Origin: an uncultured archaeon
Lineage (GTDB): Archaea; Asgardarchaeota; Thorarchaeia; Thorarchaeales; Thorarchaeaceae
Reading direction: 5' to 3'
NCBI GenBank assembly: GCA_964558645.1
Contig: CAZLEV010000010.1
Location: 32,001 to 96,000, forward strand
DNA: 64,000 bases
Part shown: one piece after another, positions 3,365-53,652 of the stretch
Numbering within the stretch: the first letter of the stretch is position 1
How the letters are laid out: every line of letters begins with the position of its first letter
Made by a program: the position numbers and the translations under genes
The notes under the pieces: model-generated
Told to the model about the DNA's origin: nothing
Database searches by the model: none
The model's input: the letters and a program-made list of their open reading frames with translations, nothing else

Positions 3365-4042
3365 TCAAATCTCGTCAAGTTTCAATTGCCTACCACCGAA
3401 CTCCTCCATAATTACTCTAACTGACTCCCAACTCTGCCTCACAAATGGGGGAATCTTTCTCGTCCTTGCACACTCTCGTACAAAACAGATAGACTTTGGA
3501 TCTCCTGGGTATCCAGAACCAATGTCGCCAAAATCGGTCTGTAGGCGCTCAATGGATCTATCACGAATCACCTTTGCAATGATTGAAGCAGCTGCTACTA
3601 CTTTGTACCTTTCATCTGCCTTATGCTCAGAAACGACCTTGCACTGCCCAGGTCTGAGATCCGATAATCGGAATACAGTTTCGCCGAAGCGCCGAGGATT
3701 CACGTCCGCTGCATCTATGTAAACCACGTCAGGCTCCAACTCTCTTAAGATAGACCCAAATGCTGCTGCCTCTATAAGATTAAGTGAAACCCCTCTCTTT
3801 CTCTTTCTATCTATCTCTAATGCAGGAATGCTTCGGATGGCAACACCTCGCGCTATCTCTTGTATCTCGTCATAAAGCTCAAACCTCTGTCTAGGAGTCA
3901 CCATCTTCGAATCTCTGATATTGATACTGTCAAGTTGACGACACCCCTCTGGGTCAAAGACCACTCCGCAGACCACCATCGGGCCTAGCATTGGCCCTCG
4001 GCCAGCCTCATCCATACCTGCACTTCTGTGATAGTTAACCAT
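3365..4042 (-). CDS. rnhB: Ribonuclease HII
   Basis: GMDEAGRGPMLGPMV, DSK, YIDAAD, SEHKAD, AAASIIAKV, GSGYPGDP. Start moved to the ATG at 4042. Confidence 0.96.
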   Translation of the reverse strand: MVNYHRSAGMDEAGRGPMLGPMVVCGVVFDPEGCRQLDSINIRDSKMVTPRQRFELYDEIQEIARGVAIRSIPALEIDRKRKRGVSLNLIEAAAFGSILRELEPDVVYIDAADVNPRRFGETVFRLSDLRPGQCKVVSEHKADERYKVVAAASIIAKVIRDRSIERLQTDFGDIGSGYPGDPKSICFVRECARTRKIPPFVRQSWESVRVIMEEFGGRQLKLDEI

Positions 4043-23756: not shown

Positions 23757-23869
23757 AGCGGGTTGGGGAAGCCTGGCCTATCCCGCGGGGCTCATAAACG
23801 CGGAAACGCGTCGAGTTCCGTGATGGGGACACCCCGAGATCGGTCGTTCAAATCGACCACCCGCTACCA
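23757..23869 (+). tRNA. trnM: Initiator tRNA-Met(CAT) with ~34-nt intron (~23797-23830)
   Basis: A1-U72 acceptor stem AGCGGGT/ACCCGCT plus ACCA; G-C rich anticodon stem CGGGG/CCCCG; intron stem CGCGGAA/TTCCGTG. Confidence 0.93.
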
Positions 23870-49583: not shown

Positions 49584-52304
49584 TCACTGAAGTTTCCATC
49601 TCTCAGGGTGATACTTCTCTGATGCCTTCCACAGCTGTCCGATGACTAGGGGGATGATGCTCATCAAGAATATCAGTCCCCAACCGACCAGTCCCGGGTC
49701 GACCAGACTGAGGAGGCCTGAGAAACCTGGAATATAGGCCGGGAATATCAATAAGGGAATACTAATTGCGAGTGCCACCCAGACATAGGGGTTTGTCGTA
49801 ACATCGTTCTTGACCAATCCGGAGCCAGAGATACGCATATTGAACACATGCCATAGTTGCGCAAAGGCCAGAGTCAGAAACACGATAGTCCCTGTTATGG
49901 CTGCACTCAAGCCCAAGATGCGGGCTGAGATATCAAAGGAGGATGCCACTGCTATCGTGATGATAGTTCCGTACCCTCCGATGGCAAACCAGTGTCTTTG
50001 GGTGACAATGGGTTCGTCTGCTGGTCGTGGTTCACGATCCATGACTGAGACATCTCCCTCTCCCACGCCGAGGGCGAAGGCCGGAAACACATCGGTGACA
50101 AGGTTCAGAAACAGTATCTGAAGGGGGCGGATTGGAAGAGGAACAGGGAGTAAGGAGAAGAGGGCAATCGCCAGAATCTCACTCATGTTACAAGAGAGCA
50201 GATAGATGACGAACTTTCTGATGTTGTTGAAAATCACACGACCCTCCTGTACAGCGTAGACAATTGTGGAGAACCGATCATCCCGAAGGATGATATCGGC
50301 CGTTTCCTGTGCCACCTGGGTTCCTCTCTTACCCATAGCAACACCTATGTCTGCCTTTTTGAGAGCAGGTGCATCATTCACACCATCGCCAGTCATGGCA
50401 ACTATCCTGTTCTGTTTCTGGTGAAGTTCAATGAGGTCCAGCTTCTGTTTCGGCGAAACCCTTGCTGTGACGGTGGCCTCAAGGGCCTTCTCGCGCTCCT
50501 CCTCAGACATCTTCTCAGGGTTCTCAAGCTCCTCTCCGGTTATGACGCGAAAGCCATCCTTCTTGACAAGTCCAACCTCTCCTGCGATCTTCTCAGCTGT
50601 CACAGGATGATCGCCGGTGACCATCACGACCTTGATGCCGGCATTCTTACAGGCGAGGATTGCATCCTCTACATCTTCACGGGCTGGGTCCAAGAGTCCT
50701 GCAAGACCAACAAATGTAAGATCCGAATAGGCCTCTGCCTCTTCGTCTTCAACCAGCTTCTGAGCAAATCCTATGACGCGGAGCCCGTCTGTAGCGAGCT
50801 CGTGATTCCGTGCCATCCATGATTCTCGTGCCTGTTCATCTAGGTCCACCGCGCCATCGCGAGCCAGGGTTCGAGACGAAGACTCCAAGACGGCCTCGGG
50901 GGCGCCCTTGACGGATATCCTGATTCCCTCTCTATCACGATTGTAGCTAGCCATCATGTTGACTTCGGGATCAAAGGCTTCCCTCTTGATCTGGGGTGAC
51001 TCTTCGAAGAGTGCATCGGCTTTGATGCCGGCCTTTCTTCCAGCCACCAGAATGGCAATCTCAAGGGGGTCTCCAACAGACTGGTCATCTTCCTCGATGT
51101 CCTCAATTTCGGTGGATGCTCGGTTGGCAAATATGCCAATCTCAAGAAGTGTGCGGATGAGTGTGTCTTCTCTCGGATCCGCGGGCTCTTCATTTACAAG
51201 GAACTCTCCCTCCAGATCCATTCCCGTACCTGTGATTTCCACTCTTTCATTGTGGAGCGCAAGCTCGGTCACAGTCATCTTCGCCTCGGTGAGAGTGCCT
51301 GTCTTGTCAGTGCAAATCACACTGGTTGCCCCCAGGGTTTCAACCGCGGAGAGGCGTTTCACTATGGCGTTGCGCCGAGCCATCCTCCACATTCCCCGTG
51401 CGAGACCAAGAGTCGCAACCAGGGGCAGTCCCTCAGGAACAGCTGCCACAGCAAGAGCGACACCGGTTTCAATCATCAGGAGGAGGTCTTTTCCACCGAT
51501 GATTCCAAAGATGGTCACCACCGTTCCCAGCAGGAGAGTCACCCATACAAGTTTCCGCCCCAAGTCGTTGAGACGTCGCTCCAGAGGCGTGACCTCTTCT
51601 TCAGCCCGTTGTACCAGAGAGGATATTGTTCCTATCTCCGTTTCCATCCCGGTTCGCACAACGATTCCAGTTCCTGACCCCCGTGTCACAGCCGTACCCT
51701 TGAAGAGCATACAGGTACGTTCCGAAACAGGTGCATCTTCATCAACTGGTTCAGGGTTCTTTCCCACAGGAACTGACTCTCCTGTCAGCGCCGCCTCGTT
51801 CACCTGAAGTCTAGAGGCCTGAACCAGACGTATATCCGCCGTGAGGACATCTCCCCCGTCGATGAGTACCACATCCCCGGGAACAATATCCTCTCCGTCT
51901 ACCTCCTTGATGTTTCTCTCCCGACGAACGTTGGTACTCACTCCTCCAAGTTCTTGGAGGGACTCCATAGATCTCACAGCACGTAACTCCGTTGCAAAAC
52001 CGATTGTTGCATTGATGAAAATGACTGCGCCAATCGCCAGAGCCTCGACCGGATCACCAAAGATGAATGCCAAAACTGATGCTAGGATGAGAATCCCGAC
52101 CATCAGGCTCTTGAATTGCTCCACCAAGATGTCCCATATGCTCCTCTTAGACACCTCACGCAACCGATTCTTGCCATACTCCTTCAGGCGCCGCTCAGCG
52201 TCCTTGTCACTGAGGCCTTGTTTCGGGTCTACGTCTAGTGCATCTAGCACCTCATCAACGGTCTTGCTCCACGGACTCTCGATAGGAACCTTGTCTGCGG
52301 CCAT
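49584..52304 (-). CDS. P-type cation-transporting ATPase (type II, Ca2+-like)
   Basis: TGES, PEGL, DKTGT, KGAPE, TGD, GDGVNDAP and NLVTD. Confidence 0.96.
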   Translation of the reverse strand: MAADKVPIESPWSKTVDEVLDALDVDPKQGLSDKDAERRLKEYGKNRLREVSKRSIWDILVEQFKSLMVGILILASVLAFIFGDPVEALAIGAVIFINATIGFATELRAVRSMESLQELGGVSTNVRRERNIKEVDGEDIVPGDVVLIDGGDVLTADIRLVQASRLQVNEAALTGESVPVGKNPEPVDEDAPVSERTCMLFKGTAVTRGSGTGIVVRTGMETEIGTISSLVQRAEEEVTPLERRLNDLGRKLVWVTLLLGTVVTIFGIIGGKDLLLMIETGVALAVAAVPEGLPLVATLGLARGMWRMARRNAIVKRLSAVETLGATSVICTDKTGTLTEAKMTVTELALHNERVEITGTGMDLEGEFLVNEEPADPREDTLIRTLLEIGIFANRASTEIEDIEEDDQSVGDPLEIAILVAGRKAGIKADALFEESPQIKREAFDPEVNMMASYNRDREGIRISVKGAPEAVLESSSRTLARDGAVDLDEQARESWMARNHELATDGLRVIGFAQKLVEDEEAEAYSDLTFVGLAGLLDPAREDVEDAILACKNAGIKVVMVTGDHPVTAEKIAGEVGLVKKDGFRVITGEELENPEKMSEEEREKALEATVTARVSPKQKLDLIELHQKQNRIVAMTGDGVNDAPALKKADIGVAMGKRGTQVAQETADIILRDDRFSTIVYAVQEGRVIFNNIRKFVIYLLSCNMSEILAIALFSLLPVPLPIRPLQILFLNLVTDVFPAFALGVGEGDVSVMDREPRPADEPIVTQRHWFAIGGYGTIITIAVASSFDISARILGLSAAITGTIVFLTLAFAQLWHVFNMRISGSGLVKNDVTTNPYVWVALAISIPLLIFPAYIPGFSGLLSLVDPGLVGWGLIFLMSIIPLVIGQLWKASEKYHPERWKLQ

Positions 52305-52565
52305 TATGGAATGCCTACCCGTTTCGAGGTTCAGATTGAATAAGAGTCTGTTCAAATGCCCTCGTCTTCCGTGGTCTTGCACAGACTACCTTTGGCTGAC
52401 GATTAGGTAGCCAATCATCCGCTTAGTTCTGAGTCATTTGGCTTTCTACTTCGTACTAGGTTTCGACGGAAACTTAGTTTTTTCGTCCCAAAAACACCTC
52501 GTACCAATCAATCTGAATTATTCCCTCACTATCTAGCTGATTGTTTAAACATACCGTGCTATATC

Positions 52566-52577
52566 AAAAAGATTAAG
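52566..52577 (+). promoter_or_regulatory. BRE/TATA promoter for the ncRNA at 52601
   Basis: AAAAAGATTAAG about 24 nt upstream of the terminal helix. Confidence 0.6.
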
Positions 52578-52600
52578 TGTATACTTTCCATACTCATATT

Positions 52601-52834
52601 TGCCGCTTGAGGAGTACGCTAACGACAGGCGTGCTGAGTCGGTTCGTGTTGAGTAAGACCGACAACACGGTCAAAAATCGGTCAAACGACGAACACAGCA
52701 CGAACGGCTGACCGACGGAAAGCAGCATCCAGTAAGAGTCTGCCAGATCGATGGGCAGACAATCGCGTTTCAAAGATGCTGTAGAACGAGCGAGAAAATG
52801 TCGGTAGCCTGTCGAGGCTTAGACTCAAGCGGCA
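52601..52834 (+). ncRNA. Unassigned highly structured ncRNA (~234 nt)
   Basis: 11-bp terminal helix, at least 6 internal helices, two potential pseudoknots, upstream promoter and a downstream TTTTCTGTTTT tract. Confidence 0.8.
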
Positions 52835-52875
52835 TTTTCTGTTTTGGCTTACTAATCCAATTCCATAGCGGGCTA

Positions 52876-53652
52876 TTAGAGCTCAAACGAACGAGGCGCA
52901 AGACCGAGATACTCTCTGATGTTGTAGATGTGTTCACGTTCATGCTCAAGGAATCGACGTAGGACTTTGTATAGTGACCATCTCTCACTGGGATAGATTG
53001 TATAGTCTATCCGAGTGAATTCGCCCTCCTTCTTTTCGGGCAGCAATCGTTTCAGGGTCCTGATGCAGGCTGTTCTGACCCCTCCCAGTCTTTCAAGTAT
53101 CGGCAGCTCATCCGCTTCTGACATCTCCATTCCCAAGTTCATCTGGTATAGCTGGTCTGCCTCCTCACCCAATCGAGAGAGATAGAACTCCTCGGCATTA
53201 CATACATGAGCAAGTATGTCCAATATGCTCCTTTGCTTCCCTTCAGGAGTTCTGGACAAGGTCTTTCTATCAAGGTCTACTACAGTATTCACAAGGTCTT
53301 CCCTGTTATGACCCATATAGCGTTCCAGAATCTCAAAGCACTTCTCGTCAACAGTCTGTCTGTCAAACTCAAAGAATGCCACTTCCCCGCCTGATTCTCC
53401 CAGTTCAGACACTCCCTCCACTTCTTCTACGACTCGAATAAGAGAGTTTGACAACGGGGGAACTGGCTCCTTGTGTCTTCTCAGCCATCTGAGATGGTAT
53501 TCGAGTTCTTCTTGAAGGTCTTGCAGGAGTACCTCTCTTTTCTGAGCTCGGGCATGGGTTCCGGGAAACTCGGTCAACCTGCCGTACCACAGGCCTGTAT
53601 TCCCGTGCTCTATCGCGGCTTCAATATCTCTCGTCGGCATCGTGAACACCAT
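52876..53652 (-). CDS. HicB-like / DinB fusion protein
   Basis: N-terminal HicB-like pattern (EFPGTHARAQKRE..L.EEL..HL.WL); DinB His motifs ILAHV and LEHEREH. Confidence 0.7.
   Translation of the reverse strand: MVFTMPTRDIEAAIEHGNTGLWYGRLTEFPGTHARAQKREVLLQDLQEELEYHLRWLRRHKEPVPPLSNSLIRVVEEVEGVSELGESGGEVAFFEFDRQTVDEKCFEILERYMGHNREDLVNTVVDLDRKTLSRTPEGKQRSILDILAHVCNAEEFYLSRLGEEADQLYQMNLGMEMSEADELPILERLGGVRTACIRTLKRLLPEKKEGEFTRIDYTIYPSERWSLYKVLRRFLEHEREHIYNIREYLGLAPRSFEL

What the first reader, a model, noticed from the sequence alone, without database searches (positions are those of the whole stretch)
52601..52834. Self-contained ~234-nt ncRNA gene with two pseudoknotted modules and no recognisable family
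Seen: the terminal helix TGCCGCTTGAG (52601-11)/CTCAAGCGGCA (52824-34) encloses CGACAGGC/GCCTGTCG, GTGCTG/CAGCAC, CGTGTTG/CAACACG, ACCGAC/GTCGGT, GCAGCATC/GATGCTGT and GTCTGCC/GGCAGAC. Loop GACCGA (52657-62) can pair with TCGGTC (52678-83) across an A-rich linker, and CGTTT (52766-70) with GAACG (52784-88), giving two pseudoknots. AGTAAGA occurs twice (52652, 52731), each just after a helix 5' strand, which suggests a duplicated module. A BRE/TATA sits ~24 nt upstream, a U-tract follows, and G-U pairs favour the + strand. I see no RNase P, SRP, tRNA or box C/D hallmarks. Inference: an independently transcribed, tertiary-structured RNA (ribozyme, RNP scaffold or ligand binder) of a possibly undescribed class.
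Basis: partly seen in the sequence, partly recalled or inferred. Interest (0 to 1): 0.85.

Follow-up and report, generated by a model that had tools for sequence, protein, structure and literature searches.

The report
Probably circular archaeal RNA beside nuclease
This is a real, undescribed non-coding RNA gene of Asgard and related archaea: its ends form the signal that the tRNA-splicing enzyme cuts, so it probably ends up as a closed circle, and it travels with an uncharacterised nuclease-like protein that it most likely binds.

Summary
The RNA gene is real. The genome is a Thorarchaeota MAG. There is no Rfam match; RNase P and SRP RNAs lie elsewhere. Homologs occur in 48 of 86 family genomes with strong covariation (91% of cells paired). 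The duplicated arm is real: relatives carry one to four arms, or an unrelated rod.

What the main class of homologs shares is a closing helix plus a canonical bulge-helix-bulge (GAGU-ACG-CU / AG-GCUU-AGA; 44 of 73 homologs, 0.8% in shuffles). This is the EndA splicing signal. It predicts a 205-nt circle (52618-52822) capped by a conserved C(UUAG)G hairpin.

The RNA usually sits beside an unannotated ~240-aa PD-(D/E)XK-fold gene: 25 of 27 protein-positive family genomes have it, and 41 of 110 protein loci. Here that gene is unlinked (contig C7).

Transcription, splicing and binding are inferred, not shown, and folding energies favour a slipped, uncut register. This scan noted the rod form before (e1-3300435). 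Cultivated Bathyarchaeum tardum has the system, so it is testable.

The parts
52566..52578 (+). BRE/TATA-like archaeal promoter (CAAAAAG-ATTAAG)
   Evidence: sequence; same spacing across 82 homologs; function inferred
52601..52611 (+). P1 5' strand (outer helix h; predicted 5' exon)
   Evidence: 99% of cells paired, 6 of 10 pairs with compensatory changes
52612..52620 (+). BHB 5' side: central-helix strand GAGU 52612-15, 3-nt bulge ACG 52616-18 (predicted cut 52617^52618), h' strand CU 52619-20
   Evidence: canonical geometry in 44 of 73 homologs vs 0.8% shuffled; unanchored scan
52623..52627 (+). P2 5' strand CGACA, pairs with 52810-14
   Evidence: 97% paired, all 5 pairs with compensatory changes
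52637..52714 (+). Arm 1: stem 52645-51/52696-702, single-A versus 8-nt GAYWAAGA-type bulge (52688-95), 2-bp stem, stem 52657-62/52678-83, loop CGGUC 52668-72 pairing with GACCG 52710-14 (pseudoknot 1)
   Evidence: the same arm alone in Bathyarchaeia one-arm RNAs, 93.5% paired
52722..52805 (+). Arm 2: stem 52722-29/52775-82, bulge 52767-74, stem 52738-44/52754-60, loop UCGAU 52748-52 pairing with GUCGG 52800-04 (pseudoknot 2)
52810..52823 (+). P2 3' strand UGUCG 52810-14; BHB 3' side: h' AG 52815-16, central helix GCUU 52817-20, bulge AGA 52821-23 (predicted cut 52822^52823)
   Evidence: GCUU in all 36 family-type hits of a scan not anchored on sequence
52618..52822 (+). Predicted mature product: 205-nt circle whose junction folds as a C(UUAG)G hairpin on P2
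   Evidence: inference from BHB geometry; folding of the junction; not observed
52824..52834 (+). P1 3' strand (predicted 3' exon)
52835..52845 (+). U-rich terminator-like tract
   Evidence: sequence; pyrimidine tract conserved across homologs

Best explanation
A stand-alone RNA gene that works as the RNA subunit of a ribonucleoprotein with an uncharacterised archaeal PD-(D/E)XK-fold protein (in this genome G000:C7:124183-124926). (1) Shown by comparison: own promoter and terminator, a closing helix P1, a bulge-helix-bulge, then a variable cargo (here two pseudoknotted arms). (2) Inferred: the splicing endonuclease EndA cuts both bulges and RtcB ligates, giving a 205-nt circle and a 29-nt hairpin by-product. 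(3) Inferred: ligation creates a constant C(UUAG)G hairpin, which is the handle the protein binds. (4) Most speculative: the exonuclease-proof circle tethers the nuclease and holds it in check, in the way a Y RNA tethers Ro60 or an RNA antitoxin holds its toxin, while the cargo supplies rigidity, valency or a second binding surface. My odds: real conserved ncRNA 0.98; BHB-spliced to a circle 0.7; bound by this protein 0.75; all steps together about 0.45.
For: BHB: canonical 3-4-3 geometry with each bulge 3' of its helix strand in 44 of 73 homologs, against 24 of 2920 shuffles. It is kept in Thorarchaeota, another Asgard family, Bathyarchaeia and a distant Thermoproteota locus while everything inside it changes. 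A scan not anchored on sequence over the protein loci gave 48 hits of 3-4-3 geometry, 36 of them with GCUU; 23 of the other 24 geometries gave 8-24 hits. The exon-side helix strand varies (GAGU, GAGC, AAGU, AAGC, GGGC) only in ways that keep pairing, while the circle-side strand is nearly fixed. Two EndA-domain genes and RtcB are in this genome. All archaeal EndA forms recognise a 4-bp helix flanked by two 3-nt bulges, and the excised part is circularised (PMC7714728); BHB presence tracks rRNA circularisation in uncultivated archaea (PMC12918454). Protein link: the same ORF lies beside the RNA in 24 loci with changing outer neighbours; 25 of 27 protein-positive family genomes have the RNA and 36 of 38 RNA-negative genomes lack the protein; 41 of 110 protein loci have the RNA in the fetched flank, shuffled control 1 row; unlinked copies were confirmed in four more protein-positive genomes. 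The model is confident (pLDDT 90.5), has the PD-(D/E)XK fold (Z 8.9 to MmcB-like 3dnx, 8.7 to XisH) and invariant E70, D81, E117, E119. Natural experiment: in genus g6 members whose genomes lack the protein, the BHB is kept but the G that closes the junction hairpin is lost in 8 of 9. The hairpin is predicted for 72 of 74 members with that G and for none of 8 without it.
Against: ViennaRNA gives the BHB central helix a probability near 0 in most precursors, this one included; the consensus fold takes a slipped register instead (GCU 52618-20 with GGC 52816-18). Central-helix changes are one-sided only, with no two-sided compensation. The 3-4-4 geometry scores almost as often (45 hits, probably the same RNAs in another register). 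29 of 73 homologs, mostly Thorarchaeota paralogs, have a relaxed or no BHB, and 23 of 48 RNA-positive genomes show no protein. The g6 loss is one clade, so it counts as one event. One distant member beside a protein homolog lacks the junction G (L249). No RNA was found near the Sulfolobales homologs. In this genome the RNA and the protein gene are unlinked.
Confidence: 0.45

Rival explanations
1. A linear RNP RNA that is never spliced. The conserved end is an asymmetric internal loop in the slipped register (GCU/GGC paired, RAGYAN opposite UUAGA), resembling a loop-E/S-turn such as 16S helix 27, and is simply the protein's binding site. The BHB geometry is incidental or is masked by the protein.
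For: Folding energies disfavour the BHB helix and the consensus fold picks the slipped register; the slipped-register G is kept where the protein is present; the sequence is more constant than a shape-reading enzyme needs.
Against: The position that would be the invariant U of a bulged-G motif (own knowledge) is C in 44 of 83 members and always a pyrimidine, as pairing with the G of GCUU requires (that scan selects for pairing, the unselected set agrees). Members that lost the protein keep the BHB and lose the slipped register.
Confidence: 0.25
2. A type III-like toxin-antitoxin or anti-virus module: the nuclease is toxic, the RNA (one to four tandem pseudoknots) is its antitoxin, and loss of the RNA during infection releases it.
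For: Nuclease-fold gene plus adjacent RNA with tandem pseudoknot repeats; patchy distribution; the protein is almost never seen without the RNA in the family; the CdiA-CT toxin 4g6v is among the weak fold hits.
Against: No PADLOC match; single copy in about half of Bathyarchaeia; conserved synteny in Sulfolobales; none in viral contigs; often unlinked or divergently transcribed; a circle would be a poor labile antitoxin; ToxN-type toxins are not PD-(D/E)XK proteins (own knowledge).
Confidence: 0.13
3. The neighbouring protein, not EndA, matures or cuts this RNA at the conserved loop, and the product acts on something else; or the pair is a domesticated remnant of a mobile RNA element.
For: Sequence-level conservation of the loop; intact catalytic carboxylates; the pair moves between genomic sites; three copies in one genome.
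Against: The geometry is exactly EndA's; there is one copy here, and no terminal repeats or reverse transcriptase were seen; the BHB persists in members without the protein.
Confidence: 0.08
4. A ribozyme or metabolite-binding RNA that acts alone, with the arms as the active part.
For: The arms have conserved unpaired nucleotides (GAYWAAGA bulge, GAAAC loop) and a pseudoknot; type-B paralogs keep the arms after losing the BHB and the protein link.
Against: The arms are replaced by unrelated rods in many members; no Rfam ribozyme or riboswitch match; no constant downstream gene.
Confidence: 0.07

Closest known systems
BHB-spliced circular RNAs of archaea (Thermoproteus permuted SRP RNA, PMC4731332; tRNA-Trp intron C/D guide; circular pre-rRNA and 23S rRNA, PMC7714728, PMC12918454)
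   Same: A 4-bp helix with two 3-nt bulges inside a longer closing stem, predicted EndA/RtcB processing, and the excised circle as the product that matters.
   Different: Those are known RNAs (SRP, sRNA, rRNA) made circular. Here the flanks are only a ~29-nt throw-away hairpin, the BHB sequence is nearly fixed, the cargo is new and variable, and a dedicated protein gene is linked.
Type III toxin-antitoxin RNAs (ToxI, CptI, TenpI; PMC3401426, PMC5086642)
   Same: A nuclease gene beside an RNA with tandem pseudoknot units in variable number.
   Different: The protein has the PD-(D/E)XK fold, not a ToxN-like one; the units are ~85-95 nt and enclosed by a terminal helix; own promoter, often divergent or unlinked; rod-shaped members have no repeats.
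Y RNA / YrlA with Ro60 (Rsr)
   Same: A constant protein-binding end made from the paired termini plus an exchangeable module; the gene usually lies beside its protein.
   Different: No Ro60/TROVE gene among the recurrent neighbours examined, no Rfam Y/Yrl match, no bulged-C stem; BHB and pseudoknot arms instead.
RNase P / MRP RNA
   Same: Superficial likeness of GAGGAGUAC and GGCUUA to CR-I and CR-V; similar size.
   Different: The genome's RNase P RNA is elsewhere; no P2/P3/P4 topology; no Rfam score.
Rod-shaped Bathyarchaeia RNA beside a nuclease-like gene
   Same: By its description the same system: I found rod-type RNAs beside this protein independently.
   Different: The excerpt shown describes the rod form only; it does not mention the BHB, the pseudoknot-arm forms or the Asgard members.

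Membership tests
EndA substrate (canonical hBHBh') | 4-bp central helix flanked by two 3-nt bulges on opposite strands, each 3' of its helix strand, with outer helices | tested here: met
   GAGU/GCUU, bulges ACG and AGA, h 11 bp, h' 2 bp; 44 of 73 homologs vs 0.8% shuffled; definition from PMC7714728, bulge polarity from own knowledge
EndA substrate (canonical hBHBh') | The BHB register is the one actually adopted | tested here: inconclusive
   Comparative pattern favours it; the energy model favours a slipped register
EndA substrate (canonical hBHBh') | EndA and a ligase encoded in the genome | tested here: met
   PF01974 twice, PF01139 once
EndA substrate (canonical hBHBh') | Cleavage and circular product observed | not testable with these tools
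Any Rfam 15 family | Covariance-model score | tested here: not met
   No match over the element at E<=10; none for nine Bathyarchaeia homolog loci
RNase P RNA / SRP RNA | Model match; the genome's own copy | tested here: not met
   Both found on other contigs above the gathering score
Type III toxin-antitoxin | Tandem pseudoknot repeats next to a nuclease gene | tested here: inconclusive
   One to four arms in some members, none in rod members; unlinked in this genome
Type III toxin-antitoxin | Toxin of the ToxN/CptN/TenpN families | tested here: not met
   No Pfam, PADLOC or NCBIfam match; best fold matches are PD-(D/E)XK proteins
Type III toxin-antitoxin | Toxicity neutralised by the RNA | not testable with these tools
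   Needs an experiment
Y RNA / YrlA | Ro60-binding bulged stem and an adjacent Ro60/TROVE gene | tested here: not met
   P1 is fully paired; the recurrent neighbour is the PD-(D/E)XK-fold gene; TROVE was not searched genome-wide
MITE / dispersed repeat | Many copies with target-site duplications | tested here: not met
   One copy in this genome, one to three in relatives
PD-(D/E)XK nuclease superfamily (partner protein) | Core fold with E...D...(D/E)x(K/E) carboxylates | tested here: met
   VIA Z 8.9, rmsd 2.3 A over 105 residues; invariant E70, D81, E117, E119; E-x-E as in BamHI (own knowledge)
PD-(D/E)XK nuclease superfamily (partner protein) | Nuclease activity and substrate | not testable with these tools
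   A shared fold shows no function

The most novel reading that the evidence does not exclude
An old ribonucleoprotein of Asgard and TACK archaea, whose RNA gene exists only to be spliced into a circle: splicing by the tRNA machinery creates the protein-binding hairpin and so acts as an assembly switch for a nuclease, while the rest of the circle is a freely exchangeable, duplicable module (one to four pseudoknot arms, or a rod).
Probability: 0.4. Interest if true: 0.92.

Novelty: categorically new. Interest (0 to 1): 0.82.

Why it matters
Few conserved ncRNA classes are known in archaea beyond rRNA, tRNA, RNase P, SRP and guide RNAs. This one spans Thorarchaeota, another Asgard family, Bathyarchaeia and at least one other Thermoproteota lineage, and it is tied to a protein found in about half of the Bathyarchaeia genomes searched that has no Pfam or NCBIfam family. 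If the splicing prediction holds, it would be a dedicated circular RNA gene with a protein partner and a new natural substrate class for the tRNA-splicing pathway. It also shows an RNA tertiary module being duplicated and swapped in evolution. It can be tested now: the predicted junction is an exact sequence to look for in existing sediment metatranscriptomes, and a cultivated organism (Bathyarchaeum tardum) carries the protein and three one-arm RNA genes.

Tried and rejected
Rfam scans of the element and of nine homolog loci: nothing. RNase P/MRP, loop-E (16S h27) and H/ACA-pocket readings of the conserved core were considered. RNase P is excluded; a guide pocket is unlikely because the two strands pair with each other; the loop-E reading is kept as rival 1. 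MITE: single copy. Viral element: neither the protein nor the RNA was found in viral contigs. The circle-junction pattern gave no hit in JGI metagenome contigs; these are mostly DNA assemblies, so this is no evidence either way. A genome-wide unanchored BHB scan timed out; an anchored one gave this locus plus one other hit, not examined and probably chance. A loose pattern in Metallosphaera and one across Bathyarchaeia were too noisy for a co-occurrence count; only individual hits were verified. One search used a mistyped structure and is void; one search replaces it. RNA and protein distances correlate in 19 linked pairs (rho 0.63), but shared ancestry explains that, and the RNA here is not closest to the RNAs of its protein's nearest relatives, so I do not claim co-evolution. 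Sequence search of PDB for the protein found nothing. Eight paper searches and a check of the Evo-PIN preprint found no description of the family; that library lacks most subscription papers.

Full report
Observation. The quoted strings are all present at the stated places, and 52595-52845 folds much better than its shuffles (z = -5.7). The element lies between a divergent P-type ATPase gene (49584-52382, named from its sequence) and a convergent DinB-like gene (52876-53652). Rfam has no match. The genome's RNase P and SRP RNAs are on other contigs and the element is single-copy. Named records holding homologs are Thorarchaeota MAGs.

Homologs and true structure. A DNA search found 13 relatives. 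A covariance model found the RNA in 48 of 86 genomes of the family, often as two paralogs, and in three genomes of one other Asgard family. It was not found in 38 family genomes, many of them near-complete. On 63 sequences (mean identity about 58%) my structure has 90.9% of cells paired and 51 of 60 pairs with two-sided changes, against 27-39% paired when slid. The RNA is: P1; an internal loop; P2; then two arms in tandem. Each arm is a long stem with a single A opposite a GAYWAAGA-type bulge, capped by a loop that pairs with the strand just 3' of the arm (52668-72/52710-14 and 52748-52/52800-04). Promoter spacing and the pyrimidine tail are conserved.

A partner gene. Clustering the flanking ORFs showed one ~240-aa protein beside the RNA in 24 loci, mostly just upstream on the same strand, while outer neighbours change. 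It has no Pfam, PADLOC or NCBIfam family. The AlphaFold model is confident and its best structural matches are PD-(D/E)XK proteins (Z 8.9 and 8.7). E70, D81, E117 and E119 are invariant. In the family, 25 of 27 genomes with the protein have the RNA and 36 of 38 without the RNA lack the protein (kin are not independent). In this genome the gene is intact but unlinked, at C7:124183. Homologs occur as a single copy in 98 of 201 Bathyarchaeia genomes and reach Sulfolobales and Desulfurococcales. None was found in viral contigs.

The cargo is exchangeable. Bathyarchaeia have one-arm (~125-140 nt), two-arm and three-arm versions with the same ends, and a metagenome locus has four arms (L170). The one-arm form keeps the pseudoknot (93.5% paired). 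Of 110 loci fetched by the protein alone, 41 have such an RNA in the flank, many with an unrelated ~130-nt irregular rod in place of arms; a shuffled control gave one row. Unlinked copies were confirmed in four further protein-positive genomes. One of these has a chromosome of 2,152,572 bp, the exact size published for Bathyarchaeum tardum M17C (PMC10477458), and holds three one-arm genes.

The constant part is a bulge-helix-bulge. Read in register, the loop next to P1 is GAG | GAGU | ACG | CU on the 5' side and AG | GCUU | AGA | CUC on the 3' side: a 4-bp helix with a 3-nt bulge 3' of each strand. This is the EndA substrate (PMC7714728). It is canonical in 44 of 73 homologs, against 0.8% when the loop strands are shuffled. 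The failures are mostly Thorarchaeota paralogs that do not lie beside the protein gene. A scan with no sequence anchor over the protein loci returned 48 hits of this geometry, 36 of them with GCUU. The strand that would be discarded varies within pairing rules; the strand that would stay in the circle hardly varies (one search was anchored on that strand, searches were not). EndA and RtcB are encoded. Cutting after the second base of each bulge (own knowledge of EndA) gives a 205-nt circle, 52618-52822, and a 29-nt hairpin. The junction folds as C(UUAG)G in 72 of 74 members with G at the third bulge position and in none of 8 without it. That G is lost in 8 of 9 members from genus g6 whose genomes lack the protein, while the BHB stays; this is one clade and so one event.

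Caveats. The energy model puts the BHB helix near zero probability in most precursors, and the consensus fold uses a slipped register that forms the same three pairs as the junction hairpin. The loop could therefore be an unspliced protein-binding site, or a switch between the two. The central helix shows one-sided changes only. No expression data could be obtained, and the empty junction search says nothing.

Mechanism and verdict. Most likely (0.45 for the whole chain): the gene is transcribed alone and spliced by EndA/RtcB to a stable circle, and the circle binds the nuclease-fold protein through the junction hairpin, tethering or restraining it. Rivals: unspliced linear RNP (0.25), type III-like antitoxin (0.13), substrate of the protein or mobile remnant (0.08), stand-alone ribozyme or sensor (0.07). 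It works like BHB-circularised RNAs in its maturation and like Y RNA or type III antitoxins in its logic, but it fails the membership tests of the latter two and matches no Rfam family. I found no paper on it. The gene family and its link to the protein are established by comparison; circularisation, binding and function remain predictions. Interest 0.82.

Noticed in passing
L075-L103, L105, L107 (e.g. L086:16-237, L096:1965-2184): A second class of Thorarchaeota paralogs keeps both arms and P1 but has a relaxed (4-nt bulge) or lost BHB, does not lie beside the nuclease gene, and sits near cupin / acyl-CoA dehydrogenase-like / HD-domain genes. It may have a separate function.
   Followed up: partly
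L095:1993-2220 and 3603-3829 (G013): Two tandem copies 1.6 kb apart in a 98%-complete genome that shows no partner protein; both have a shifted, non-canonical BHB.
   Followed up: no
L170:1179-1563; L122:1410-1737: Four-arm (2x2 duplication, 356-nt predicted circle) and three-arm versions; arms 1 and 2 of L122 are nearly identical, which points to a recent duplication.
   Followed up: partly
   Followed up: partly
L247, L248, L251 (Sulfolobales): Distant homologs of the partner protein sit in conserved synteny (FAD oxidoreductase, PurT-like ATP-grasp gene) with no RNA found nearby.
   Followed up: partly
G000:C10 about 125262-125300 (outside the window): The 16S rRNA sequence departs from the usual text right after helix 27 (GAAACT followed by CCTCTAGG), which may be an rRNA intron.
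   Followed up: no
window 52455-52486: A 10-bp hairpin followed by a T run in the intergenic region upstream of the promoter; chance level for this scan is 0.5 per region.
   Followed up: no
window 51617-51895: A 16-bp perfect inverted repeat spaced about 250 nt apart inside the P-type ATPase ORF.
   Followed up: no
window 23757-23869: Intron-containing tRNA-Met; ARAGORN calls an intron in about half of this genome's tRNAs, so EndA is likely in regular use.
   Followed up: partly
G027:C101, G035:C149 and C105: The only two family genomes with protein hits but no RNA hit have partial matches only (C-terminal parts), possibly decayed or cut-off genes.
   Followed up: no
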